A DNA stretch of 64,000 bases. Source: an uncultured Nitrospiraceae bacterium (GTDB lineage: Bacteria > Nitrospirota > UBA9217). The first letter of the stretch is position 1. Each line of letters opens with the position of its first letter. Positions 3,087-56,464 of the stretch are shown here, piece by piece. The translations under genes and the position numbers were made by a program. Under the pieces are notes generated by a model. That model was not told the origin of the DNA. It saw only the letters and a list, made by a program, of their open reading frames with translations, and did not search any database. The DNA is taken from positions 691,723 to 755,722 of the forward strand of contig CAYUSP010000003.1 of NCBI GenBank assembly GCA_964447405.1, in the 5' to 3' direction.

Positions 3087-3157
3087 GAGTTCGTAGTTCG
3101 GAGATAAAGACCGAAACTGCGATTCTCACTTCCATCTCCGAACTCCAAACTCCGAAC
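3087..3157. repeat. Intercistronic hairpin element: arms GAGTTCGTAGTTCGGAGAT / ATCTCCGAACTCCAAACTCCGAAC, 28-nt loop
   Basis: The inner 11 bp (AGTTCGGAGAT/ATCTCCGAACT) pair perfectly. The arms are tandem repeats of an (A)GTTCGGA-like unit. The element starts 5 nt after the gspE stop. Confidence 0.8.
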
Positions 3158-8682: not shown

Positions 8683-8711
8683 ATTATAGACAAGGCGGGA
8701 TTATTTTTCAA
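8683..8711 (-). promoter_or_regulatory. Sigma-70-type promoter TTGAAA-17-TATAAT positioned for a leaderless transcript of the 55-aa ORF/GATase unit
   Basis: On the minus strand, -35 is at 8706-8711 and -10 at 8683-8688. The A of the ATG (8676) is 7 nt downstream of the -10 box. Confidence 0.5.
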
Positions 8712-8741
8712 TGATTATCGAAAAAAGCGCTTACTTTCCTG

Positions 8742-8770
8742 TTGCTAATCAGCATGAGACTCACTATAAT
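8742..8770 (+). promoter_or_regulatory. Sigma-70-type promoter TTGCTA-17-TATAAT positioned for a leaderless namZ-like transcript
   Basis: -35 is at 8742-8747 and -10 at 8765-8770. The A of the ATG at 8777 is 7 nt downstream of the -10 box. Confidence 0.5.
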
Positions 8771-8776
8771 TCGCCC

Positions 8777-9961
8777 ATGCTGGCCGACAAAAACGTTCTC
8801 TCTGGACTGGATCTCATTGACAAACAGTGGCCCCGGGACCTCAAAGGCGCGCGTGTCGGGCTCGTCGTGCATCCCGCTTCCGTGAACCGCAACCTGCAGC
8901 ACGCGGTCACAATATGCATGAGGTCGAAGCGCTTCGAGCTCACTACGCTCTTCGGCCCGCAACACGGGATCCTCGGGCAGACCCAGGACAATATGATCGA
9001 ATGGGAGGGTTTCAAAGACCAGTCCACCGGCCTCCCTGTTTACAGTTTATACGGTAAATTCCGCAAACCTCGCCCTGAGATGTTGGCGAACATTGATGTT
9101 CTGGTGGTCGACCTTCAGGATGTGGGGAGCAAATATTATACGTTCATCTGGACATTGGAACTCTGCATGCAAGCGTGCAGGAGCGCGGGCAAGGCCGTGA
9201 TTGTCCTGGACCGGCCCAATCCGATAAATGGGCAGAGCGTTGAAGGGCCGCTCCTGAATCCCGAATACGCGTCCTTTGTCGGGCTTCGTCCCCTTCCCAT
9301 CCGCCACGGCATGACCATCGGAGAGATCGGATCCTATCTCAGAAACACATTCCATGCCGGGCTGGACTACCGTGTCATCGCCATGCAGGGATGGAAGCGC
9401 GGCATGTGGTTTGAACAGACAAAACTGCCCTGGGTAATGCCCTCACCTAACATGCCGACACCCGATACGGCTCTGGTCTATCCCGGCATGTGCCTGTTCG
9501 AGGCCACGAACATCTCGGAAGGCAGGGGTACCACGCGGCCCTTCGAGATCTTCGGTGCACCGTTCATCATTGCCGAGGCTATTGTGGACGTTCTCAAAGA
9601 ATTCAAGCTGCCTGGCGTGATCTTCCGCCCCCTCTCGTTCCAGCCCACGTTCCAGAAACACGCGAACGCACTCTGCAACGGCGCTCAGATCCATGTAACG
9701 AACCGTGACAGGTTCAAACCATTCAAGACCGGAGTAGCGATCCTGAAAGCCATCCACAATACGTATCCCCGCGACTTCAAGTGGAACCAGCCTCCCTATG
9801 AATATGAAGAAGTGAACCTTCCTATCGACATCCTGGCGGGAAGCGATCGGCTGCGCAAGGACGTCGAATCATGGAAGGACATTGATGATATGGAAGCGTG
9901 GTGGAAGGAAGAAGCGAAGGCGTTTGAAAAAACAAGGAAGCAATTCTTGCTCTATAAATAG
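8777..9961 (+). CDS. namZ: DUF1343 family protein, NamZ-like exo-beta-N-acetylmuramidase candidate
   Basis: ORF 8711..9961 trimmed to the ATG at 8777. MLADKNVLSGLDLI...ARVGLVVHPASV...VVDLQDVGSKYYTF...LDRPNPING...GLRPLPIRHGMTIGE is the DUF1343/YbbC pattern. Confidence 0.75.
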   Translation: MLADKNVLSGLDLIDKQWPRDLKGARVGLVVHPASVNRNLQHAVTICMRSKRFELTTLFGPQHGILGQTQDNMIEWEGFKDQSTGLPVYSLYGKFRKPRPEMLANIDVLVVDLQDVGSKYYTFIWTLELCMQACRSAGKAVIVLDRPNPINGQSVEGPLLNPEYASFVGLRPLPIRHGMTIGEIGSYLRNTFHAGLDYRVIAMQGWKRGMWFEQTKLPWVMPSPNMPTPDTALVYPGMCLFEATNISEGRGTTRPFEIFGAPFIIAEAIVDVLKEFKLPGVIFRPLSFQPTFQKHANALCNGAQIHVTNRDRFKPFKTGVAILKAIHNTYPRDFKWNQPPYEYEEVNLPIDILAGSDRLRKDVESWKDIDDMEAWWKEEAKAFEKTRKQFLLYK

Positions 9962-9970
9962 AACCATTTC

Positions 9971-10103
9971 ACCGCAGAGGACGCAGAGGGGAAGCATGGC
10001 GAGGAAGGCAACGGCGGGCAAGGCATTAAGCTTTGTTTAAAAACCAGAAATAATTTTGAATTAAGATTTCCTTGGAGTTGATTTCCTCTGCTTCCTCTGC
10101 GGT
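9971..10103. repeat. Cargo-less hairpin element with the same terminal inverted repeats as the GxxExxY cassette
   Basis: The left arm ACCGCAGAGGACGCAGAGG (9971-9989) is identical to 12360-12378. The right arm CCTCTGCTTCCTCTGCGGT (10085-10103) matches the exact complement at 18 of 19 positions. The 95-nt interior is AT-rich and has no ORF. Confidence 0.85.
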
Positions 10104-10114
10104 AACAATTATTT

Positions 10115-12091
10115 ATGCCTGAATTCAATCTCAACATTTTCCTCCCCGCAGCTGGCCTCGGTGAACGGCTCAGACCGATCACGAACCACATTCCCAAACC
10201 GCTCCTTCCGATACTCGGCAAGCCAATCATCGAAGGCATTCTCGATAAACTCACTCTTGTCTGCAACGGCAGCATAGGGATTAACCTCCACTACAAGCCG
10301 GATATGCTACGCGAATGGGCTGTACGATCTACCTGGGCTGACCGCATATCATTCTTTCCCGAGGACCCGATCCTCGGGACCGGCGGCGCGCTTAAGAACG
10401 CGGAGTCATTTCTCTCCAGCAGGAACTTCATCGTCCACAACTCAGACATCCTCCTTGATATCAACTTCACCCGCCTGATCGAAGAGCACCTCTCTTCAGG
10501 TAATATCGCCACACTTGTATGCCACCGTTTGCCGGAGCTTGCCAACGTCGTGATCGATACACACGGCCAGGTCCTGGATGTAGAAAACCCGGGAGCATCA
10601 AAACCGGACGCATCGACCACTGCGGACAAGGTCGCCTATACCGGCGTCGCAATCTACTCACCGGACATATTGCAGTTTCTGCCATCCGGCGTTTCACATG
10701 CCACGGTCGCGTGGATAGCCGCGTCCAAGGCTGGTTTTCGAGTGCGCGCCTGGGATGTCACCGGCTCGTACTGGAACGACGTGGGAAATCCAGTGACCTA
10801 TGCACGAGGTGTACTGGACGCCCTGCGTGAAAACGGGGAAATGGTGCATGTCTCCCCTGCGGCACGATGCGGGAACATCCTGAGCGACGGTTATCTGGTG
10901 CTCGAGTCAAACGGGGAAGTACAGGACAGCTCCCGGCTCAGGAATTGTATTGTGATGCCCGGGGCAAACGTTTCCGGCAGTCATGCGGACTGCATTCTCG
11001 GTCCGGACTACGCGGTCGCACTTACGGAATCCGACATGCAGCCGTCGGTCCATGCGGCGGAAAAGAAACGCGTATTGCTGAACGATCCGCTTTTCTCGTC
11101 GCACTTTGGGATTCACGCCATGAGCAACTGCACAGCTGCAACTCCCAACTCGCCATTCTGGTCCGACGCAATCCTGATAGGACTCGGCGGCTCGGATAGG
11201 CGCTATTTCCGCGTACGGAACAATGGTAAGACCGCGGTCCTCATGGAGTGCCGGCAGGATGATCCGGACTATGATCGCCATTTGATTTACACCAGGTTCT
11301 TTAAAGAACATACCGTGCCCGTGCCTGAGCTCATTGCATCAGACACTGAGGGCAAACGTGCCCTGTTCGAGGACCTCGGAGACACATCGTTGTACTCATA
11401 CCTGAAGCTTCCGCACGCGGCTTATGCAGTCGAGGAAGTCTATCGGAAGGTGCTCGACATCCTGGTGCAGCTCCACACCAGGGTCACGAATCATGTATAC
11501 GGGTGCCCGACACTCAGTGCGCGAGTATTCGACTATGATCATTTACGGTGGGAAACAGGTTATTTTATGGAGCGGCTCGTCACCGGACTGAAAGATATCG
11601 CGGCGTTTGATCGGGCGGCACTGGACAACGAATTCCACCGGCTTGCGGAGCGGACAGCTGCGTTGCCCAAAAGCGTGATCCACCGGGATTTTCAATGCCA
11701 GAATATCATGATCACGGATGGAGACATGCCGCGCGTAATCGATTTCCAGGGCGCACGCATGGCGCCGCCAGGTTATGATGTCGCATCCATGCTGTGGGAC
11801 CCGTACCACCGGCTGGATGAAGGCGTCCGGGAGCGCCTTATTGGTTATTATGTGGCGGAAATGAAGAAATGTTCGGAAAATTTCGATGAGCAGGCTTTTT
11901 TGAACAGCCTGATCCCCTGCCGGCTTCAGAGACATATGCAGGCTTTGGGTGCATTTGGATTTTTGTCTGTGGTCAAGGGGAAAAAATATTTCCGCAAGCA
12001 CATACCCGAGGCAATGCGACTGTTGAAAGAGGAGACTATCCTGGTCAAGGAAGAATTTCCGACGCTGGCATTGCTCGCGTCAACACTCTGA
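10115..12091 (+). CDS. Fused sugar-1-phosphate nucleotidyltransferase (MurU-like) and aminoglycoside-phosphotransferase-fold sugar kinase (AmgK-like)
   Basis: A single 658-aa ORF. The N-terminus has LPAAGLGERLRPITNHIPKPLLPI (the NTP-transferase G-x-G-x-R motif). The C-terminus has HRDFQCQNIMI...VIDFQGARMAPPGYDVASML (APH/AmgK-type catalytic loop). Confidence 0.65.
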   Translation: MPEFNLNIFLPAAGLGERLRPITNHIPKPLLPILGKPIIEGILDKLTLVCNGSIGINLHYKPDMLREWAVRSTWADRISFFPEDPILGTGGALKNAESFLSSRNFIVHNSDILLDINFTRLIEEHLSSGNIATLVCHRLPELANVVIDTHGQVLDVENPGASKPDASTTADKVAYTGVAIYSPDILQFLPSGVSHATVAWIAASKAGFRVRAWDVTGSYWNDVGNPVTYARGVLDALRENGEMVHVSPAARCGNILSDGYLVLESNGEVQDSSRLRNCIVMPGANVSGSHADCILGPDYAVALTESDMQPSVHAAEKKRVLLNDPLFSSHFGIHAMSNCTAATPNSPFWSDAILIGLGGSDRRYFRVRNNGKTAVLMECRQDDPDYDRHLIYTRFFKEHTVPVPELIASDTEGKRALFEDLGDTSLYSYLKLPHAAYAVEEVYRKVLDILVQLHTRVTNHVYGCPTLSARVFDYDHLRWETGYFMERLVTGLKDIAAFDRAALDNEFHRLAERTAALPKSVIHRDFQCQNIMITDGDMPRVIDFQGARMAPPGYDVASMLWDPYHRLDEGVRERLIGYYVAEMKKCSENFDEQAFLNSLIPCRLQRHMQALGAFGFLSVVKGKKYFRKHIPEAMRLLKEETILVKEEFPTLALLASTL

Positions 12092-12334
12092 TACAATCGG
12101 CTGTGCGCCTCTATCCCTCATTGCTTTCTCCACTGCCGTGATTTGCTCGTTAAGCAACTTGCACTCTTCCTCGTATTCCGTGGTCAAATTCTGCGCTTTT
12201 TCGGCGCCGATGTGCACCGAGGTCTTCACGAAGGTGAATGAGTGCATGTCCTGCAGGTCGCACAGGTTATCCTTCAACCGCTTGAGCTCGGCTTTGAGTT
12301 CGTCGAAGGACATATCGTTATAATTCTTTGTCAT
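12080..12334 (-). CDS. Small hypothetical coiled-coil protein (84 aa)
   Basis: ORF trimmed to the ATG at 12334 (MTKNYNDMSFDELKAELKRLKDNL...). I recognise no family. It is AT-richer than its neighbours. Confidence 0.4.
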   Translation of the reverse strand: MTKNYNDMSFDELKAELKRLKDNLCDLQDMHSFTFVKTSVHIGAEKAQNLTTEYEEECKLLNEQITAVEKAMRDRGAQPIVSEC

Positions 12335-12359
12335 AACACAAACCTCAAAACCTTTTTTT

Positions 12360-12845
12360 ACCGCAGAGGACGCAGAGGAAGTCAAACCCGCTGGCCTATA
12401 ATCCGTTGGCGACTCTCTTAATGCCATCTTTCAAATGAACAACATTGAAGTTTATTAATAGCCCAAGCTTTTTATTGCTTAATTTCAGGTATGAAAGAAT
12501 TTGTGCTTCATGAATCGGCAATATTTTCTCAACTGCCTTCAATTCAACGATAACACAATTGTCAAGCATAAGGTCTATTCTATATCCGGCATCGATCTTC
12601 AAGCCATCATACAGGATCGGCAAGGCCATTTGAGAAAGCACGGTTAATCCGAGCTTTCGTAGTTCATGCAGCAAACATGCTTCATACGCGCTTTCCAGCA
12701 AACCAGGACCCAAAGCTGAATGAACTTTCATTGCAGCTTCAATAATCTTACCACTAACCCCATTTATATCCATTTATTCCAGACCTCCTGTCTATCCTGC
12801 CAGTTTTTGACCTCCTCGCCTCTCACCCTCTGCGTCCTCTGCGGT
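12360..12845 (-). mobile_element. Hairpin-bounded cassette carrying a GxxExxY gene (perfect 19-bp terminal inverted repeats)
   Basis: ACCGCAGAGGACGCAGAGG at 12360-12378 is the exact reverse complement of 12827-12845. The interior is AT-rich. The element begins 6 nt after the cca stop. Confidence 0.7.
12396..12773 (-). CDS. GxxExxY family protein (PD-(D/E)XK-like small protein)
   Basis: 125 aa. It has the motif G-L-L-E-S-A-Y in ...HSALGPGLLESAYEACLLHEL, a typical ...DLMLDNCVIVELKA... core, and an AGGAGG RBS 8 nt upstream. Confidence 0.85.
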   Translation of the reverse strand: MDINGVSGKIIEAAMKVHSALGPGLLESAYEACLLHELRKLGLTVLSQMALPILYDGLKIDAGYRIDLMLDNCVIVELKAVEKILPIHEAQILSYLKLSNKKLGLLINFNVVHLKDGIKRVANGL

Positions 12846-12851
12846 GAAAGA

Positions 12852-14270
12852 TTATCTGAATCTCTCCAGATACACCAGCGCCTCCTGCCTGGTCGCGATA
12901 ACTCCCTCTGCCTGCTTCTCCTTAATCTCCTCCAGAATCTCGCGAAACCGCGGACCCGGTGTAAGTCCAATCCCGATGAGGTCCTCACCCCTTATCAGTG
13001 GTTTCTCTTCGACCTTCAGGAATTTTGAAAAGTAGAATTCCAGGACCGCAGCCATGGTCTTCGAGGTGTCCGTAAACTTTTCCCTGGGCATGATCTCGAA
13101 TGTAGCGCGCGCGTCCGCCTGGGCAAGGAGCAGACTCTCCGGCACAGACTCTCCGAGATCGCGGCAGTAGCGGTACATGGCGTTTCTTCCCGGACCGCCT
13201 GGAGCGGAAAGATTAAACAGCCTCATGTGCTGTTTGATGACCCGGGTGACCGCTTTTTCCGTGTCTTTCGAGAGCTTCAATCGCCGGCAAATGCCCGCCG
13301 CCTTGTCCGCGCCCAGATTGTCGTGTCCATGGAACCGGACATGGCCGTCCGCATTCGTGAACGTCTCGGGCTTTGCATTATCATGGATAAGACAGGCGAA
13401 TCTGAGCGCTGCCTTTCTCGTGACCTGGTGTTCGAGCAGCTCATCGAGGTGCGCCAGTATAGCAGCTGCATGCTCTGGTGGAAGTGACTGCAGATCATCC
13501 AGTACCGCATCGATATACCCCGCTGTTTTTATGGAATGGGTCAGGACATCATGGACATGGTACCTGCCGGGAGCAAAGCCGCGGAGCGTTTCGAGTTCCG
13601 GCAGAAGCGGCGCGAGAAGACCAAGTGAATCCAGGAGCGTGAGATGCTGTTCAGCATTCCGTTCGGCAAGGATGATAAAGAGCTCATCCCGAACGCGTTC
13701 TGGAGCTGGCCGCGATATCAGGCTTGCGCGCTGCCGGATGTGCTCCGCAGTCGATGCCTCGATCGTACATCCCAACGCAGCAGCAAATCGCACTGCGCGC
13801 AAAAGACGAAGAGGGTCCTCATCCAGAACCTCCGGACTTGTCACGCGAATGACCCTGTTCTCCGCATCCTTTTTACCATGAAAGAGATCGATCAGTCCTG
13901 CAAGAGACTGATCACGCATGAACTCCCGCAGGTCAAGCGCCATGGCATTGATGGTGAAATCCCGACGGCCAAGATCGGCCTGCAGGTCAGGACCTTCGAA
14001 GTTCGTAAAATCGAACTGAAAGGAGCCATCGTTCTCATACTTCATGACGCGCGTTATCTTTCGATCTTCGTCCAGGAAAAAAAAACTGCCCTGAATCAGA
14101 TCAGCGAACGTGCGCGCCACAGCCTCCGAGCCTTCAGGCATGAGCAGGTCTATGTCCTTGAGGTCCTGTTTGCCTATCAGGAGGTCGCGGATAGCTCCGC
14201 CGACGAGATAGATGGGTTGGGGAGTTAATGAAAGCAGCTTGGCAAGATATTTCGAAGCGAGAGCATCCAT
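12852..14270 (-). CDS. cca: CCA-adding tRNA nucleotidyltransferase / poly(A) polymerase family with an HD domain
   Basis: 472 aa with YLVGGAIRDLLIG...DIDL...RRDFTINAMA (the Pol-beta nucleotidyltransferase head) and HDNAKP/HGHD (HD domain). Confidence 0.8.
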   Translation of the reverse strand: MDALASKYLAKLLSLTPQPIYLVGGAIRDLLIGKQDLKDIDLLMPEGSEAVARTFADLIQGSFFFLDEDRKITRVMKYENDGSFQFDFTNFEGPDLQADLGRRDFTINAMALDLREFMRDQSLAGLIDLFHGKKDAENRVIRVTSPEVLDEDPLRLLRAVRFAAALGCTIEASTAEHIRQRASLISRPAPERVRDELFIILAERNAEQHLTLLDSLGLLAPLLPELETLRGFAPGRYHVHDVLTHSIKTAGYIDAVLDDLQSLPPEHAAAILAHLDELLEHQVTRKAALRFACLIHDNAKPETFTNADGHVRFHGHDNLGADKAAGICRRLKLSKDTEKAVTRVIKQHMRLFNLSAPGGPGRNAMYRYCRDLGESVPESLLLAQADARATFEIMPREKFTDTSKTMAAVLEFYFSKFLKVEEKPLIRGEDLIGIGLTPGPRFREILEEIKEKQAEGVIATRQEALVYLERFR

Positions 14271-17877: not shown

Positions 17878-18105
17878 AAATTATCCCCCCTCCACAAATG
17901 GAACACTTACAGTTCAGCTTTGTTAAAGAAAAATAGCGAAAAAACCCGTAAAATCGCGCTCATCATAGCAAATTTGCAGTAGAAGTGCAATCAAAAGTAT
18001 GGTACTATTCAGCGTATTTTTTGGGTTTTTGGGGGTTTTTTCGCAATAAATTGACCTTCAAAAAATATATCCCATTACAACCGCACTCACGTTAGGATCA
18101 ATATC

Positions 18106-20145: not shown

Positions 20146-20246
20146 ATTTATTATGCAGGGACGCTGATGAGTATGCTATACTTTTTTCACGTTGACAGAC
20201 CGCGGAATTGCGCGATCAAACACTAAGAAGATTCGAGGGAGGCGCT

Positions 20247-20807
20247 ATGGTTGGCTGGATACTGCTTGCTGTGCTTGGCCTGGTCATTATCTGGATCATC
20301 GTGATCTATAATGGGCTCGTATCGTTACGGAACGAGGTGCAGAATGCGTGGAAGCAGATCGATGTGCAGTTGAAACGCAGGCATGATCTGATCCCGAACC
20401 TGGTGGCAGCTGTGAAAGGCGCGCTGGAATTCGAACAGGACACCCTCGAAAAAGTGATTTCAGCCCGGGCAAAGGCCGTTTCCGCGGGATCTGCCGCATC
20501 CAAAGCCGACGCTGAGAACATGCTGACCCAGGCCATCGGAAAGCTCTTTGCCGTGATGGAGAACTACCCCGCGCTCAAAAGCAACGAAAACGTCCTGCGT
20601 CTCCAGGAGGAGTTGACCTCAACCGAGAACAGGATTTCCTTCGCGCGACAGTTGTATAATGACCTCGTTGCTAATTACCGGACCAGGCTCCAGGTCTTCC
20701 CGAACAATATCATTTCGTCAATGTTCAACTTTCAGACCGAGGAATATTTTTCAGCCGAGGAGCAGGCCAAGGCCACACCGGCTGTGAATCTGAGCATAAG
20801 GAAATAG
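20247..20807 (+). CDS. lemA: LemA family protein
   Basis: ORF trimmed to the ATG at 20247, preceded by GGGAGG. It has an N-terminal TM helix and YNGLV.LRN.V..AW.QIDVQLKRRHDLIPNLV, the LemA pattern. Confidence 0.85.
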   Translation: MVGWILLAVLGLVIIWIIVIYNGLVSLRNEVQNAWKQIDVQLKRRHDLIPNLVAAVKGALEFEQDTLEKVISARAKAVSAGSAASKADAENMLTQAIGKLFAVMENYPALKSNENVLRLQEELTSTENRISFARQLYNDLVANYRTRLQVFPNNIISSMFNFQTEEYFSAEEQAKATPAVNLSIRK

Positions 20808-20810
20808 AAC

Positions 20811-20921
20811 GGACAGAAGTAAGAAGACAGACTGAACCAATATACCGCACGCTTGTATACCTTGTCTATTGTCTGACTTCTCTCTTCTGTCCTCTGTCTT
20901 CTGTCCTCTGTCTTCTGACCC
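20811..20921. repeat. Cargo-less hairpin element related to the four-helix-bundle cassette, plus tandem CTCTGTCTTCTGTC units
   Basis: The left arm GGACAGAAGTAAGAAGACAGAC (20811-20832) pairs with GTCTGACTTCTCTCTTCTGTCC (20871-20892) at 19 of 22 positions. Its first 16 nt are identical to 29288-29303. It starts 3 nt after the lemA stop. Confidence 0.8.
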
Positions 20922-20926
20922 TCACC

Positions 20927-22561
20927 ATGCCCCTTACCTTTATTGACATAGAACGGCAGAAGAGCTGGCGCATAGGAATCTTTTTCCTCGTTCTCCTCGC
21001 GTTGTACCTCGTGATAGCGGCTCTCTTTGTAACCGCCTTTTTCCCCATTCCCTGGCATGGCGCGCTGCAGTTCTGGTTGATTGTCGGACTGGCTGCGCTG
21101 TTCATTGCAGGGATTCACTTCTGGTTCTCCGCATATGACACGGTCAGGACGGTAATACAAGGCCTCGAAGGCCAGCCGCCCGATCCTCAGGACGACGTGC
21201 ATACGATGTTCCTGAACATCATACAGGAGATCCAGGTCGTGACCGGGAGCAAACGGAAGATTCAGTGCACCGTGATTCCCTCATTCTCCCTGAATGCGCT
21301 GGCGGTTGCGGATCTCAGGGGCGAGGCTGCGATAGGAATCACGGAAGGTCTGCTGTCGCGCCTTACCCGGCCCCAGCTCGAAGCGGTCATCGCGCATGAA
21401 GCGCACCACATCCTTTCAGGGGATTGCCTGGAAGCCACCGTAGCTGCAAGCCTGTTCGGCACGTATGTATCTGCCATTGAAAAAATGAGCGCGACGTCAC
21501 AGGGCCGGGCCTTTGCGTCGCCCACGCTCCTGCTGGCCTGGCTGCTGATGAAACTGAGCCAGCTCCTGAACATGTTCATTTCTCGCGAGCGCGAGTACCG
21601 GGCCGACGCCGCAGCTGTACGCATGACCAGAAACCCCATCGCGCTCGCAGAGACACTCTATATGCTGTCGCGAAGCTGGCGGGGCGCTGGTTTTATCGGC
21701 AGCGGATACGAAATGCTCTGTATCGTGAATCCCCGATCAGCGTTCATGGACGAAACCGAAGGATTCTGGGCCGACCTGCTGTCCACGCATCCTCCGCTCC
21801 GGAAAAGGATGGACATTCTGCTTTCCATGGCGCATGCGAACATCGCTGAATTGGATGCCCGTTCAGCGGGGGCAGCAGATCACAAGCCGACAAAGGTGGA
21901 ACTTCGATACTATGCCATGAATCCCCAGCAAAAGTGGCAGGGGCCGTTCACGCCGGCAGAACTCGGCGAACTGCTGTGGTTGTCGCCCCTTACCTGGGTC
22001 ACGCAGGGCAAGAATCATCCCGTGGACCGCGCTTCGAAAGAGCCTTCCCTCAACGCCATTTTCATGGCTAAACTTGCCTCGCAGGAGCGGCCTCTTTCGG
22101 ATTTTTCCTGCCCTGCCTGCAGCCAGCAGCTCGTTATAAGTTCTTATGAAGGCACTCAGATCTATCAATGCAGATTTTGTTCCGGCATTCTGGTGGATAT
22201 GATGAAAATACCCCGGATCATCGCTCGAACAAGCCGGGAGCGTCTGTGCTCGGAGAGGATCGTATCTCTTGCCAAGGCAGTCGCTTCGGCAAATCAAATG
22301 AAAGTTACGCTTCAGAAACACGCTGCGGGTGGGCATAAGGCGGTTGCGCTTCTGCCGTGCCCGAAATGCGGCAATCCCATGTTCAGGTGCTTTTACAGCC
22401 AGGCCCACCTGATTGAAATAGACCGCTGCAGTTTCTGCAGCCTCACATGGTTCGAGCAGGACGAGCTCGAAATGCTGCAATGCATGATAGAGCACAGGTT
22501 GATGCCGGATGTCACCGGGCAGGAACAGATTACTCTGCCAACTGCTGAAGCATGGATTTAA
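20927..22561 (+). CDS. M48 family zinc metallopeptidase with a C-terminal GYF_2-like domain and two zinc-ribbons
   Basis: 544 aa. It has N-terminal TM helices and HEAHHIL (HExxH). YYAMNPQQKWQGPFTPAEL is GYF_2-like. CPACS...CRFCSG and CPKCG...CSFCSLTWFEQDELE are zf-TFIIB-type ribbons. Confidence 0.75.
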   Translation: MPLTFIDIERQKSWRIGIFFLVLLALYLVIAALFVTAFFPIPWHGALQFWLIVGLAALFIAGIHFWFSAYDTVRTVIQGLEGQPPDPQDDVHTMFLNIIQEIQVVTGSKRKIQCTVIPSFSLNALAVADLRGEAAIGITEGLLSRLTRPQLEAVIAHEAHHILSGDCLEATVAASLFGTYVSAIEKMSATSQGRAFASPTLLLAWLLMKLSQLLNMFISREREYRADAAAVRMTRNPIALAETLYMLSRSWRGAGFIGSGYEMLCIVNPRSAFMDETEGFWADLLSTHPPLRKRMDILLSMAHANIAELDARSAGAADHKPTKVELRYYAMNPQQKWQGPFTPAELGELLWLSPLTWVTQGKNHPVDRASKEPSLNAIFMAKLASQERPLSDFSCPACSQQLVISSYEGTQIYQCRFCSGILVDMMKIPRIIARTSRERLCSERIVSLAKAVASANQMKVTLQKHAAGGHKAVALLPCPKCGNPMFRCFYSQAHLIEIDRCSFCSLTWFEQDELEMLQCMIEHRLMPDVTGQEQITLPTAEAWI

Positions 22562-28665: not shown

Positions 28666-29313
28666 TTGCCATCACAAATAACTCATGCTATAACGCTCGT
28701 CATGTCAACCTCTCCCTCCTTAGAAGAACAGATAACGATGGCGGGCCTCACATACGGACGCCGCCACGACATCGCATACCGCTCCGGCATGGTGCTCCAG
28801 GTATGCGGTGCTGCCTTGCTCGCTGTGCTGTATCCGCTCGACAGCCCGTTCTATACCATAGGCATCATGCTGTTCGAAGCCGGCGTACTGCTTTCTGCAA
28901 TCTATCTTCTCGTTTGGATGCGCCCGGTCAAGAAGATAATAGTCGGGTCGGTGATCGCAGGGCTCGTTCTTCAAGTAGTCGGTGCCTTCGCGGCCCCGGA
29001 ACAATATGCGGGTCTGGTTCTGCTCTCAGGAATCGGGCTCGTCTGCGCTGGAGCGGCTGGGATGGTCGGCAATGAGGCGTTTTGCTTTGGATACCGTGAA
29101 GGCTGGGTGCTTATGCTGGCTGGATTTCCCGTGATGGTCCTGGCAAATCTGCTGCTCAGAGAGAACCGCATTTTCAATTCGCTGGGTTTCTCCGTTATTT
29201 TTTTACTGCTGCTTTCACTTACAGGCAAGAAGCTAAGGCAGAAATTGCTTTCTTTACCCTCTACAAGCGTTTGCGGGGTGTCGGAGAGGACAGAAGTAAG
29301 AAGTAAGAAGTAA
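28666..29313 (+). CDS. Hypothetical multi-pass membrane protein (possibly DUF2301-like)
   Basis: It has 5-6 predicted TM helices and a ...GNEAFCFGYREGW... motif. The start is uncertain (alternative ATGs at codons 13 and 25). The last ~9 codons and the stop lie inside the repeat arm of the downstream cassette. Confidence 0.5.
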   Translation: MPSQITHAITLVMSTSPSLEEQITMAGLTYGRRHDIAYRSGMVLQVCGAALLAVLYPLDSPFYTIGIMLFEAGVLLSAIYLLVWMRPVKKIIVGSVIAGLVLQVVGAFAAPEQYAGLVLLSGIGLVCAGAAGMVGNEAFCFGYREGWVLMLAGFPVMVLANLLLRENRIFNSLGFSVIFLLLLSLTGKKLRQKLLSLPSTSVCGVSERTEVRSKK

Positions 29314-29736
29314 GAGAACTACCAAATATAATTCGTCCAACATGAAAAAACATAACTTCAGAAATCTAAAAATCTACCAACGAGCCATAGCATTCGCTGT
29401 GGATATTTACCAGATCAGCAGGAGTTTTCCGCAGGATGAAATTTATGGGCTGACAAGTCAGATACGACGGGCCGCAACTTCAATCCCCCTTAATATTGCC
29501 GAAGGCAGTGGCAGCACATCAGGAAAAGAGTTTAGGCGATTTCTTGAAATTGCTTTACGTTCTGATTATGAGGTATTGGCCTGTCTGGAAATATCATTAC
29601 GATTGAATTACTGCAATCATGCGGTTTTTGAAAAACTGACTCAGGAAGCAAACGAAATAGCATCCATGATAGCTGGATTCTCAAAAAGCCTATAATCTTA
29701 CTTCTTACGTCTTATCTCCTTTTTCTTTCTTCTGTC
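29288..29736 (+). mobile_element. Hairpin-bounded cassette carrying a four-helix-bundle (23S rRNA IVS-type) gene
   Basis: The left arm is GGACAGAAGTAAGAAGTAAGAAGTAAGA (29288-29315). The right arm is TCTTACTTCTTAC...CTTCTGTC (29696-29736). The inner 13 bp and outer 8 bp are complementary. The cargo is AT-rich. The stop codons of both flanking convergent genes fall in the arms. Confidence 0.65.
29342..29695 (+). CDS. Four helix bundle protein (23S rRNA-intervening-sequence protein family)
   Basis: 117 aa. ...LKIYQRAIAFAVDIYQISRSFPQDEIYGLTSQIRRAATSIPLNIAEGSGSTSGKEFRRFLEIALRS..E is the canonical pattern of this family. Confidence 0.85.
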   Translation: MKKHNFRNLKIYQRAIAFAVDIYQISRSFPQDEIYGLTSQIRRAATSIPLNIAEGSGSTSGKEFRRFLEIALRSDYEVLACLEISLRLNYCNHAVFEKLTQEANEIASMIAGFSKSL

Positions 29737-56264: not shown

Positions 56265-56464
56265 AATCTTTGACACGGAAGGAGCGGATGAAAAGCGGAT
56301 ATTGGCAGATAACGCCTAAATAGGTCCGTATCCCTCAGTGTTAAGCACGTCATTCTTTTAATGTTAACAGCTTCGTTCTAGAAGCGAGGATGAACCTCGG
56401 ATTGCGATTGTTAAAATCCGCCCTTATCCGGATTTCTGATCCGCCGTGATCCGTGTCAAAGATT
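56265..56464. repeat. 200-bp element bounded by a perfect 15-bp inverted repeat AATCTTTGACACGGA / TCCGTGTCAAAGATT, inserted between the two permease genes
   Basis: The arms are at 56265-56279 and 56450-56464. The sub-terminal GCGGAT-rich imperfect repeats also pair. The interior is AT-rich and has no ORF. It begins 10 nt after the upstream permease stop. Confidence 0.8.

What the first reader, a model, noticed from the sequence alone, without database searches (positions are those of the whole stretch)
9971..10103. Cargo-less twin of the GxxExxY cassette: same arms, no gene, same polarity relative to the host gene
Between the namZ-like stop and the murU/amgK-like start there is a 133-bp element. 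Its left arm (9971-9989) is identical (19 of 19) to the cassette arm at 12360-12378. Its right arm (10085-10103, CCTCTGCTTCCTCTGCGGT) differs from the perfect complement at one base.

The homology continues inward. The arm next to the upstream host gene is followed in both elements by a GGCGAGGA(A)GG..CAA motif. The distal arm is preceded by AA(G/A)TCAA. So the two elements have the same orientation relative to host transcription, even though they lie on opposite strands.

The 95-nt interior is AT-rich and has no ORF. This is the relationship expected between an element with cargo and a MITE-like derivative, or between an occupied and a vacant integration scaffold. It is direct evidence that these structures duplicate or move.
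Basis: seen in the sequence. Interest (0 to 1): 0.72.

Follow-up and report, generated by a model that had tools for sequence, protein, structure and literature searches.

The report
Gene-less hairpin copy of GxxExxY cassette
A 133-base hairpin wedged between two cell-wall-recycling genes has the same end sequences as a nearby small nuclease-gene cassette, and both belong to a family of insertions, not found described in the literature I could search, that occurs in many bacterial phyla.

Summary
Arms ACCGCAGAGGACGCAGAGG lie at 9971-9989 and 10085-10103 (18/19 complementary). They are identical to the arms of the GxxExxY cassette at 12360-12378 and 12827-12845, and there are no other matches in the window.

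The claimed inward homology is only a degenerate third copy of the arm's 9-nt unit and is statistically marginal.

The exact 19-mer occurs in at least 120 genome stretches from many phyla. Most are 58-234-nt gene-less hairpins at gene boundaries; few enclose a GxxExxY gene. GxxExxY genes sampled by protein alone, in at least five phyla, carry the same arm family and are always co-oriented with the flanking genes.

At the orthologous namZ-murU junction, relatives show overlapping genes, a plain 53-54-nt spacer, related hairpins, unrelated hairpins, or a full GxxExxY cassette.

The window element's interior is orthologous to the hairpins of two relatives. It is therefore old, not a fresh copy of its neighbour.

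A second pair in the window (the 23S-IVS-protein cassette at 29288-29714 and the gene-less hairpin at 20811-20918) repeats the pattern.

Best reading: a MITE/REPIN-like non-autonomous member of a GxxExxY-cassette element family, built like ORF-bearing rRNA intervening sequences. The mobility enzyme and RNase III processing are inferred, not shown.

The parts
9971..10103 (+). 133-bp gene-less palindromic element in the namZ-murU spacer
   Evidence: The RNA fold is -56.8 kcal/mol with z = -5.4. No Rfam family, promoter or terminator is found.
9967..9990 (+). Promoter-proximal arm with its flank, TTTCACCGCAGAGGACGCAGAGGG. It is 24/24 identical to the proximal arm of the GxxExxY cassette (reverse complement of 12826-12849).
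   Evidence: It matches the family consensus TT(C/A)ACCGCAGAGGACGCAGAGG.
10085..10103 (+). Distal arm CCTCTGCTTCCTCTGCGGT, 18/19 complementary to the proximal arm
9990..10084 (+). 95-nt interior. Its 5' part holds a degenerate third repeat unit (GGCGAGGAA). Its core, GTTTAAAAACCAGAAATAATTTTGA, is orthologous to the hairpins of L138 and L160.
8711..9961 (+). Upstream host gene namZ (exo-beta-N-acetylmuramidase family)
   Evidence: PF07075 1.4e-82, PF20732 1.2e-57.
10115..12091 (+). Downstream host gene, a MurU-like/AmgK-like fusion (NTP_transferase + APH)
12356..12849 (-). Full cassette: 23-nt inverted arms enclosing a GxxExxY gene, between the CCA-adding enzyme gene (12852-14270) and an 84-aa gene (12080-12334), all on the minus strand
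   Evidence: The MFE structure closes with the outer arms, -165.6 kcal/mol, z = -4.5. Orthologous cassettes occur in L160 and L223.
12396..12773 (-). GxxExxY protein gene (125 aa; PD-(D/E)XK, PF13366/TIGR04256)
29288..29714 (+). Second cassette type: GTAAGAA-unit inverted arms enclosing a 117-aa 23S-rRNA-intervening-sequence-protein gene (29342-29695)
   Evidence: (PF05635 1.2e-37).
20811..20918 (+). Gene-less twin of the second cassette. Its proximal arm shares the 16-mer GGACAGAAGTAAGAAG with 29288-29303. It fills the spacer between the + ORFs 20208-20807 and 20927-22561.
   Evidence: The fold is -37.4 kcal/mol, z = -4.5.

Best explanation
9971-10103 is a non-autonomous, gene-less member of a family of palindromic insertion elements. 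The family's terminal inverted repeats are runs of a 9-nt unit; the consensus is TT(C/A)ACC-GCAGAGGAC-GCAGAGGA-.... The gene-bearing members of the family are the promoter-less GxxExxY (small PD-(D/E)XK nuclease) cassettes, one of which lies 2.3 kb away.

Shown:
- These elements insert in the short spacers of co-directional gene pairs.
- Gene-bearing copies are always co-oriented with the host genes.
- The arm family and the gene occur together in several phyla.
- Gene-less copies greatly outnumber full ones.
- Orthologous junctions differ in presence, absence and type of element.

Inferred:
- The gene-less copies relate to the cassettes as MITEs or REPINs relate to their autonomous partners. 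They share only the ends and are probably acted on in trans, with the GxxExxY nuclease as the obvious candidate.
- In the operon transcript the arms form a stem of 19 bp or more. The stem loops the insert out and brings the namZ stop and the murU start to within about 20 nt of each other. It is a likely RNase III substrate, as in ORF-bearing 23S rRNA intervening sequences.

This particular copy is old, because its interior is shared with relatives. Its arms still match the family consensus and the neighbouring cassette exactly. That implies either arm-specific constraint or conversion.
For: Arms and chance:
-.

Family breadth:
They include cultured Nostoc, Calothrix, Cylindrospermum and Oscillochloris, plus MAGs labelled Acidobacteriota, Planctomycetota, Gemmatimonadota (Gemmatimonadaceae), Verrucomicrobia, Bacteroidia, Nitrospirota and several Proteobacteria. 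It also occurs in 12 viral contigs.
- 53 of 61 paired arm hits span 58-305 nt and 8 span 398-1516 nt; elements with two exact arms count twice. Among the long spans, only L026, L093 and L094 show a GxxExxY-like ORF inside.
- Arms lie inside long ORFs far less often than random positions do: 26% against 73%. Most of those cases sit at ORF ends.
- Partner arms that were not selected by the search give the consensus TT(c/a)ACCGCAGAGGACGCAGAGGA.

Arm-gene link in protein-based samples, free of arm selection:
- P0206 Binatia and P0228, both 74% aa identity, have TT(T/A)ACCGCAGAGGACGCAGAG arms.
- Bacteroides finegoldii has TTCACCACAGAGGACGCAGAGG. Bernardetia has CACAGAGA units. Sphingomonas has TTCACGCGAAGGCGCGAGGAC. 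Gemmatirosa has an AACCGCAGAGGACGCAGAGG hairpin next to the gene.
- Viral contig L217 has TTCACCACAAAGAAC units.
- The three 23S-IVS-protein cassettes use unrelated units.

Orientation:
- About 15 independent cassettes are co-oriented with the upstream gene and none is opposite.

Turnover at the orthologous junction:
- Distant relatives have overlapping genes.
- L136, L146 and L148 have a plain 53-54-nt spacer.
- L138, L140, L144, L160 and L162 have related hairpins.
- L151 has a full cassette.
- Other relatives have unrelated hairpins, a toxin-antitoxin pair or kb-size inserts.
- The cca junction shows the same variety.

Other:
- Sulfuricellaceae L030 and L069 carry multi-copy hairpins with the same interior.
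- A second twin pair lies in the window.
- Predicted folds.
- There is no U-tract terminator or promoter in the element.
Against: - No target-site duplication or exact empty site could be defined, because the flanks of relatives are too diverged.
- No transposase or recombinase lies within +-5-10 kb, and GxxExxY has never been shown to act on DNA or RNA.
- The 23S-IVS-protein cassette shows the same full/empty pairing although its cargo is not a nuclease. This weakens the idea that the cargo mobilises its own arms.
- Gene-less interiors carry no remnant of the gene, so derivation by internal deletion is not shown.
- The window copy is orthologous to hairpins in relatives, so no recent movement of this copy is documented.
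- Arm mismatches at the junction show no excess of G-U over A-C on the sense strand (17 against 25). The sense RNA is not the more stable strand (6 of 25). Selection on the RNA stem is therefore unsupported.
- Only 64 kb of the source genome was available, so copy number there is unknown.
Confidence: 0.58

Rival explanations
1. A selected cis-acting RNA hairpin of the namZ-murU operon. It would act as an RNase III processing site, an mRNA stabiliser, or a device that keeps stop and start close for translational coupling. It would be maintained in place, and the identity of its arms to the cassette would come from gene conversion or convergence on a favoured stem.
For: - The predicted stem is strong (z = -5.4).
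- It fills an intra-operon spacer exactly, with no terminator or promoter.
- A hairpin with an orthologous interior is retained at this junction in L138 and L160.
- Distant relatives have overlapping, presumably coupled genes.
- For this copy the sense strand folds 12 kcal/mol better than the antisense.
Against: - Close relatives manage with a plain 53-54-nt spacer, or with hairpins of unrelated sequence.
- Arms decay in L138 and L160.
- There is no G-U over A-C excess and no sense-strand stability bias across 18-25 junction hairpins.
- The same arm sequence occurs at hundreds of unrelated junctions in other phyla. This points to an inserted element rather than a locally evolved regulator.
Confidence: 0.2
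2. A vacant recombination scaffold. The hairpin would be an attachment site into which a circular GxxExxY gene can be integrated, or from which it can be deleted, by site-specific or direct-repeat recombination. In this it would resemble an integron attC or an empty cassette.
For: - At the same junction, L151 holds a gene between termini of the same TCTCGC type as the gene-less L138, L140, L144 and L160.
- L226/L227 have the order arm-ORF-arm-loop-arm, so recombination between the two direct arms would leave exactly a gene-less hairpin.
- In L218 and in Gemmatirosa the gene lies between complete hairpin modules.
- Nostoc L013 has 'inside-out' arm pairs that look like abutted ends.
Against: - No integrase lies in the neighbourhood.
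- On reading, the arms lack the attC core sites.
- In the window the arms flank the gene rather than follow it.
- The loop of the gene-less element is unrelated to the untranslated parts of the cassette.
Confidence: 0.12
3. A recent local copy: the 133-bp element was produced from the cassette 2.3 kb away, by duplication followed by loss of the gene, within this genome.
For: The proximal arms are identical over 24 nt and the distal arms nearly so. The two elements are close together.
Against: - The interior is orthologous to hairpins at the same junction in L138 and L160, whose NamZ is only 77-80% identical.
- It shows no similarity to the cassette beyond the repeat units.
Confidence: 0.05
4. 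Chance similarity of low-complexity sequence.
For: The arm is a tandem repeat of a purine-rich 9-mer, and the 19-mer is widespread.
Against: - The window holds 4 hits against 0.04 expected.
- By my own estimate, about 4 chance hits are expected for a 19-mer in 596 Gb on both strands. At least 120 were found, mostly as inverted pairs at gene boundaries.
Confidence: 0.01

Closest known systems
ORF-bearing intervening sequences of 23S rRNA (Leptospira, Coxiella burnetii)
   Same: - The architecture matches. The Coxiella IVS is a 428-444-nt insert bounded by terminal inverted repeats that form a 28-bp stem, with a small ORF of the PF05635 family in the loop (PMC4990558).
- The paper also describes a sporadic, horizontally spread distribution.
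- From my own knowledge, ORF-less IVS versions also exist, for example in Salmonella.
- The window's cassette at 29288-29714 carries a PF05635 gene.
- RNase III cuts the Coxiella stem in vitro.
   Different: - These elements sit in mRNA spacers between protein genes, not in 23S rRNA helices. The window has no rRNA and no rRNA landmark occurs in any fetched locus.
- The cargo of the studied family is a PD-(D/E)XK protein.
- The arms are tandem 7-9-nt units.
- RNase III cleavage is untested here.
REPIN-RAYT systems (REP doublets and REP-associated tyrosine transposases); comparison from my own knowledge
   Same: Many short hairpin-forming inverted doublets sit at gene boundaries, together with a rare gene flanked by the same repeats in inverted orientation.
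   Different: - The flanked gene is a PD-(D/E)XK protein, not a HUH/Y1 transposase.
- The repeats are tandem 9-mers without the REP GTAG motif.
- The same arm family is shared across phyla.
- A second cargo family, the IVS protein, shows the same arrangement.
Bacterial MITEs co-transcribed with genes, such as Neisseria Correia/NEMIS elements; comparison from my own knowledge
   Same: They are 100-150-bp non-coding elements with terminal inverted repeats, inserted next to genes and transcribed into mRNAs. Their stem is an RNase III substrate, and no cognate transposase is known.
   Different: The repeat sequence is different. No TA target duplication or IHF site is seen here. This family has gene-bearing members and a pan-phylum range.
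Integron gene cassettes and attC sites
   Same: Both involve promoter-less small genes co-oriented with upstream transcription, imperfect palindromes of 57-141 nt, and empty cassettes.
   Different: No integrase or attI is present. On reading there are no R'/R'' core sites. The arms flank the gene, and copies are dispersed singly in operon spacers rather than arranged in arrays.
Free-standing homing endonuclease genes between conserved genes (phage T4 seg/mob type; PD-(D/E)XK homing enzymes such as I-Ssp6803I); comparison from my own knowledge
   Same: A small nuclease-fold gene sits between conserved co-directional genes, with presence/absence polymorphism among relatives.
   Different: Homing genes do not need or carry conserved inverted-repeat ends, and they do not spawn gene-less hairpins. 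No cleavage activity is known for GxxExxY.

Membership tests
GxxExxY-cassette arm family (as delimited here) | Inverted arms built of the TT(C/A)ACC + GCAGAGGAN units | tested here: met
   The proximal arm matches the family consensus 19/19 and the distal arm 18/19. The same arms lie on the GxxExxY cassette 2.3 kb away and on cassettes in other phyla.
GxxExxY-cassette arm family (as delimited here) | Placement in a short spacer between co-directional genes | tested here: met
   The element lies 9 nt after the namZ stop and 11 nt before the murU start. Other copies are placed the same way.
MITE | Small, non-coding, with terminal inverted repeats | tested here: met
   133 bp, no contained ORF, 19-nt inverted repeats with 1 mismatch.
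MITE | Target-site duplication | tested here: inconclusive
   The flanks CATTTC/AACAAT show no direct repeat. Empty sites in relatives are too diverged to set the boundaries.
MITE | Multiple copies in one genome | tested here: inconclusive
   Two elements with these arms lie in the 64 kb available. Other genomes hold several copies, for example L030/L069 and three contigs of QHVI01. The rest of the source genome was not available.
MITE | Autonomous partner with the same ends encoding a transposase | tested here: inconclusive
   A partner with the same ends exists (12356-12849). Its product is a PD-(D/E)XK-fold protein of unknown activity, not a recognised transposase.
REPIN-RAYT | Flanked gene is a HUH/Y1 (IS200/IS605-like) transposase | tested here: not met
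   The flanked genes are PF13366 and PF05635.
23S rRNA intervening sequence | Inserted in a 23S rRNA helix | tested here: not met
   The element lies between protein genes. The window has no rRNA at Rfam gathering thresholds.
23S rRNA intervening sequence | Terminal inverted repeats forming a stem of about 20-28 bp around the insert | tested here: met
   The outer stems are 19 bp (133-bp element) and 23 bp (cassette) and are extended by imperfect pairs. The Coxiella stem is 28 bp.
23S rRNA intervening sequence | Excision by RNase III | not testable with these tools
   Only predicted folds are available. The G-U against A-C and strand-stability tests gave no support for selection at the RNA level.
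Integron cassette / attC | attC core sites, and an integrase or attI nearby | tested here: not met
   No GTTRRRY/RYYYAAC cores are seen at the arm ends on reading. No recombinase domain occurs among the 17 called genes of the 16-kb neighbourhood.
Intrinsic terminator | GC-rich stem followed by a U tract | tested here: not met
   The region has 0 terminator-like sites. The stem is followed by AACAATT.
Any Rfam RNA family | Match to a curated covariance model | tested here: not met
   The best hit is a plant miRNA model at 21 bits, against a gathering score of 150 (E = 1.5). Nothing in the window reaches a gathering threshold.

The most novel reading that the evidence does not exclude
These hairpins and cassettes would be the mRNA counterpart of rRNA intervening sequences. 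They would form a pan-bacterial class of promoter-less selfish cassettes carrying either a GxxExxY nuclease or a 23S-IVS protein. Sequence-conserved inverted repeats of tandem units bound them, and they colonise operon junctions. The stem would make the insertion phenotypically silent by looping it out of the transcript, or by having RNase III excise it. The cassettes would spawn gene-less hairpins that the GxxExxY nuclease recognises through the conserved arm units. That would be a REPIN-RAYT-like partnership built on a PD-(D/E)XK enzyme.
Probability: 0.3. Interest if true: 0.8.

Novelty: new variant of a known kind. Interest (0 to 1): 0.66.

Why it matters
GxxExxY (TIGR04256/PF13366) and the '23S rRNA intervening sequence protein' (PF05635) are very large families with no known function. 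For GxxExxY the homologue search hit its 8000-candidate limit.

How rRNA intervening sequences arise and spread has stayed unresolved since they were first described. PMC4990558 still lists transposon-remnant and mobile-element hypotheses.

The results give both families one concrete, testable context. Both genes are cargo of hairpin-bounded insertions that sit in operon spacers. For GxxExxY, the end sequence is conserved across phyla more tightly than the protein: 19/19 nt at 74% aa identity.

That makes two experiments direct: nuclease or binding assays on the arm units, and RNase III mapping in operon transcripts.

There is also a practical point. The arms are stop-free in all six frames, so gene callers extend ORFs into them. 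These repeats probably also break metagenome assemblies.

Tried and rejected
- **Rfam.** Permissive and gathering searches found nothing relevant.
- **Promoter and terminator scan.** None found.
- **Inward homology between the two elements.** Marginal on the 5' side and absent on the 3' side.
- **Deletion-derivative idea.** No gene-less interior, in the window or in five relatives, resembles the GxxExxY cassette core of the window or of L151.
- **RNA-level selection.** Sense against antisense stability was 6:19, and G-U against A-C mismatches in the arms were 17:25. Neither supports it.
- **Target-site duplication or exact empty site.** Not definable from the relatives.
- **Link to rRNA.** No universal 16S or 23S landmark occurs in any fetched locus.
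- **Anti-phage defence libraries.** Only faint Cas4 hits, E about 0.007.
- **Solved structures by sequence.** None.
- **Viral contigs for relatives of the two cargo proteins.** Only 5 and 1 loci.
- **Literature.** Almost nothing on GxxExxY, PF13366 or PF05635, and no paper holds the arm sequence.
- **First look-up of the NamZ protein.** It failed and succeeded only through the identical database entry.

Full report
**1. What is in the sequence**

The 19-mer ACCGCAGAGGACGCAGAGG occurs four times in the window and nowhere else at up to 3 mismatches:
- 9971-9989 (+)
- 10085-10103 (-, one mismatch)
- 12360-12378 (+)
- 12827-12845 (-)

The chance expectation is 0.04. Each arm is two copies of a 9-nt unit (GCAGAGGAC, GCAGAGG) behind ACC.

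The first pair bounds a 133-bp stretch. It fills the spacer between NamZ (8711-9961) and a MurU/AmgK-like fusion (10115-12091), with 9 and 11 nt to spare.

The second pair bounds a 125-aa GxxExxY gene (TIGR04256, 3.9e-44; PF13366). This cassette lies between a CCA-adding enzyme gene and an 84-aa gene, all on the minus strand.

The promoter-proximal arms of the two elements are identical over 24 nt, including the outside flank TTTC.

As RNA, the small element folds at -56.8 kcal/mol (z = -5.4). The cassette's minimum-energy fold is closed by its outer arms.

The element matches no Rfam family and contains no sigma-70-type promoter or intrinsic terminator.

**2. The claimed inward homology**

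The match GGCGAGGA(A)GG..CAA is marginal: score 11 against 7.7+-1.5 in shuffles, reached by 51/1000. The distal match is not significant.

Alignment with relatives shows that GGCGAGGAA lines up with a third GCAGAGGAA unit. The inward 'motif' is therefore a decayed repeat unit, not a separate shared sequence.

Polarity cannot be read from the arms themselves. An R-arm...Y-arm palindrome looks the same on both strands. It rests on the 24-nt identity of the proximal arm with its flank, which is modest evidence.

Polarity is clear for gene-bearing copies. About 15 independent cassettes are co-oriented with the upstream host gene and none is opposite.

**3. The arm is the signature of a very widespread family**

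By my own estimate, about 4 would be expected by chance. The hits include cultured cyanobacteria and Chloroflexi, plus MAGs labelled as many other phyla. It also occurs in 12 viral contigs.

In these hits the arm continues as further CGCAGAGG units of variable number.
- About half of the arm hits have an inverted partner downstream.
- 53 of the 61 paired hits span 58-305 nt and carry no gene. Eight are longer. Elements with two exact arms are counted twice.
- A GxxExxY gene was found next to an arm in only five loci: L007, L026, L085, L093 and L094.

Arms avoid coding sequence. 26% lie in stop-to-stop ORFs of 200 aa or more, against 73% of random positions, and most of those sit at ORF ends.

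Partner arms that the search did not select give the consensus TT(c/a)ACCGCAGAGGACGCAGAGGA. Variation is mostly A/G transitions.

However, the copies are structured elements at gene boundaries.

**4. The arm family is tied to the GxxExxY gene**

I sampled GxxExxY genes by protein similarity only.
- Homologues 74% identical in Binatia MAGs lie between a DUF1156 methylase and DUF499. A second homologue lies between the mod and res genes of a type III restriction system. Both have TT(T/A)ACCGCAGAGGACGCAGAG arms.
- Bacteroides finegoldii (radA | GxxExxY | FAD protein) has TTCACCACAGAGGACGCAGAGG.
- Bernardetia has CACAGAGA units.
- Sphingomonas (fabD | GxxExxY | fabG) has TTCACGCGAAGGCGCGAGGAC.
- In Gemmatirosa the gene is followed by a complete AACCGCAGAGGACGCAGAGG hairpin.
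- A viral contig has TTCACCACAAAGAAC units.

A distant 140-176-aa subgroup in AT-rich viral contigs has AT-rich arms.

The three cassettes that carry the 23S-IVS protein use unrelated units: GTAAGAA, GAAGGCT and CGTTACAC.

So arms and gene travel together. The arm is conserved more tightly (19/19) than the protein (74%). That argues for sequence-specific constraint on the arms, not merely pairing.

**5. The orthologous junction**

The source is a Nitrospirota genome. Relatives show the following states.
- More distant relatives have namZ and murU overlapping by 10-20 nt.
- In the closer clade the spacer takes many forms:
  - 53-54 nt without a hairpin (L136, L146, L148).
  - Hairpins of the GCAGAG type (L138, L140, L144, L160, L162).
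  - A full 468-nt GxxExxY cassette (L151; PF13366 1.7e-39).
  - Hairpins with unrelated tandem-unit arms.
  - A PhdYeFM-PIN pair.
  - Inserts of kb size.
- The cca junction behaves the same way.

This is presence/absence and replacement at fixed positions. It is the evidence for insertion that the single pair in the window cannot give.

The interior of the window element is significantly similar, in the same orientation, to the hairpins of L138 and L160: score 17-18 against 8.5+-1.5, reached by 0-2 of 500 shuffles. Their arms are of the decayed TCTCGCAGAG type.

The window copy is therefore old, yet its arms equal the family consensus and the neighbouring cassette. In L160 the hairpin and the cassette have different arms.

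Either the arms are under constraint in this lineage or they have been converted. I cannot tell which.

Gene-less interiors carry no trace of the gene. The relation between full and empty forms is therefore 'same ends only', as in many MITE-transposon pairs.

**6. Replication inside the window**

A second cassette, 29288-29714, encloses a PF05635 gene (1.2e-37). Its proximal arm begins with GGACAGAAGTAAGAAG.

Apart from one 2-mismatch match on the hairpin's own distal arm, that 16-mer occurs otherwise only at 20811. There it forms the proximal arm of a 108-nt gene-less hairpin that fills another spacer between co-directional ORFs.

Further tandem-unit hairpins lie at 3087-3152 and 56265-56464.

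**7. Mechanism**

Shown:
- The elements are insertions at operon spacers.
- Gene-bearing copies are co-oriented with the host genes.
- The arm family and the gene occur together in several phyla.
- Gene-less copies are in large excess.
- Elements turn over at orthologous sites.

Inferred:
- Gene-less copies depend on something that recognises the arms. The GxxExxY protein is the candidate.
  - It has the E...D...ExK signature of PD-(D/E)XK nucleases.
  - Its model matches restriction-endonuclease folds weakly.
- The same full/empty pairing for a non-nuclease cargo cautions against this.

The RNA-level reading is that the stem insulates the insert and is cut by RNase III. It rests on the analogy with the Coxiella IVS, which has a 28-bp stem, a PF05635 ORF in the loop and RNase III cuts in mid-stem.

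My two tests for RNA-level selection were negative. The palindromes look as if they are born perfect and then decay. That fits an origin at the DNA level.

**8. Comparison with known systems, and novelty**

The architecture is that of ORF-bearing rRNA intervening sequences, but the location is different. The population structure is that of REPIN-RAYT or MITE systems, but the enzyme class is different. The attC, terminator and Rfam tests all fail.

I found no paper describing these cassettes or the arm sequence. Subscription literature and database curators' notes were not searchable.

I rate the element a new variant of a known kind.

Noticed in passing
window 29288-29714 and 20811-20918: There is a second cassette/twin pair. 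A 117-aa 23S-rRNA-intervening-sequence-protein gene (PF05635) sits between GTAAGAA-unit inverted arms. A 108-nt gene-less hairpin has a proximal arm that shares the 16-mer GGACAGAAGTAAGAAG with it.
   Followed up: yes
window 56265-56464; L136 8455-8640: A 200-nt hairpin has arms AATCTTTGACACGGA / TCCGTGTCAAAGATT and internal GCGGAT-type repeats. A hairpin with the same TTTGACAC..GTGTCAAA ends occupies the cca junction of relative L136, where the window has the GxxExxY cassette.
   Followed up: partly
window 3087-3152 and 17933-18047: These are further hairpins. One has arms GAGTTCGTAGTTCGGAGAT / ATCTCCGAACTCCAAACTC, built of tandem GAGTTCG-like units. The other has arms ATAGCGAAAAAACCCGTAAAA / TTTTGGGGGTTTTTTCGCAAT.
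   Followed up: no
L134/L135 6298-6920; L139, L141, L195: The same namZ-murU junction holds a PhdYeFM antitoxin plus PIN toxin pair in one relative. Three others hold inserts of 1.4-3.4 kb. This spacer is a general landing site for mobile genes.
   Followed up: partly
L013 2580-2690 (Nostoc calcicola) and similar Nostocales loci L011, L018, L019, L032: 'Inside-out' arm pairs occur here: the pyrimidine arm comes first, then an 18-nt loop, then TCGAACCGCAGAGGACGCAGAGG. The ACC ends therefore face the loop, like abutted element ends. The sequence after the arm (GGAGAAATAAGAGTTT...) is conserved among Nostocales.
   Followed up: partly
L226/L227 1440-2030; L229 1460-1950; L237 1195-1623: GxxExxY cassettes sit inside defence and core operons: between a DUF1156 methylase and DUF499, between type III mod and res, and between fabD and fabG. 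L226/L227 have the order arm-ORF-arm-loop-arm, so recombination between the two direct arms would leave a gene-less hairpin.
   Followed up: partly
L218 500-1180: In a viral contig the GxxExxY gene lies between direct copies of a roughly 90-nt module. The module is itself an imperfect hairpin of CGCTGAT / CGCAGAT units, with one mismatch per unit. This arrangement is closer to an attC-like array than to simple flanking arms.
   Followed up: no
arms at 9971-9989, 12360-12378 and homologues (one search list): The GCAGAGGAC arms have no stop codon in any of the six frames. Database GxxExxY entries of 133-180 aa are likely ORF calls extended into the arms (seen in L094, L026 and L237). Many homologues sit on contigs of 0.5-5 kb, as expected if these repeats break assemblies.
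   Followed up: partly
L008 4274-6347; L030/L069: Several near-identical gene-less hairpins with the same interior occur within single MAGs: Lentisphaerae has three in 2 kb and Sulfuricellaceae has three on two contigs. The gene-less form therefore multiplies as a unit within genomes.
   Followed up: partly
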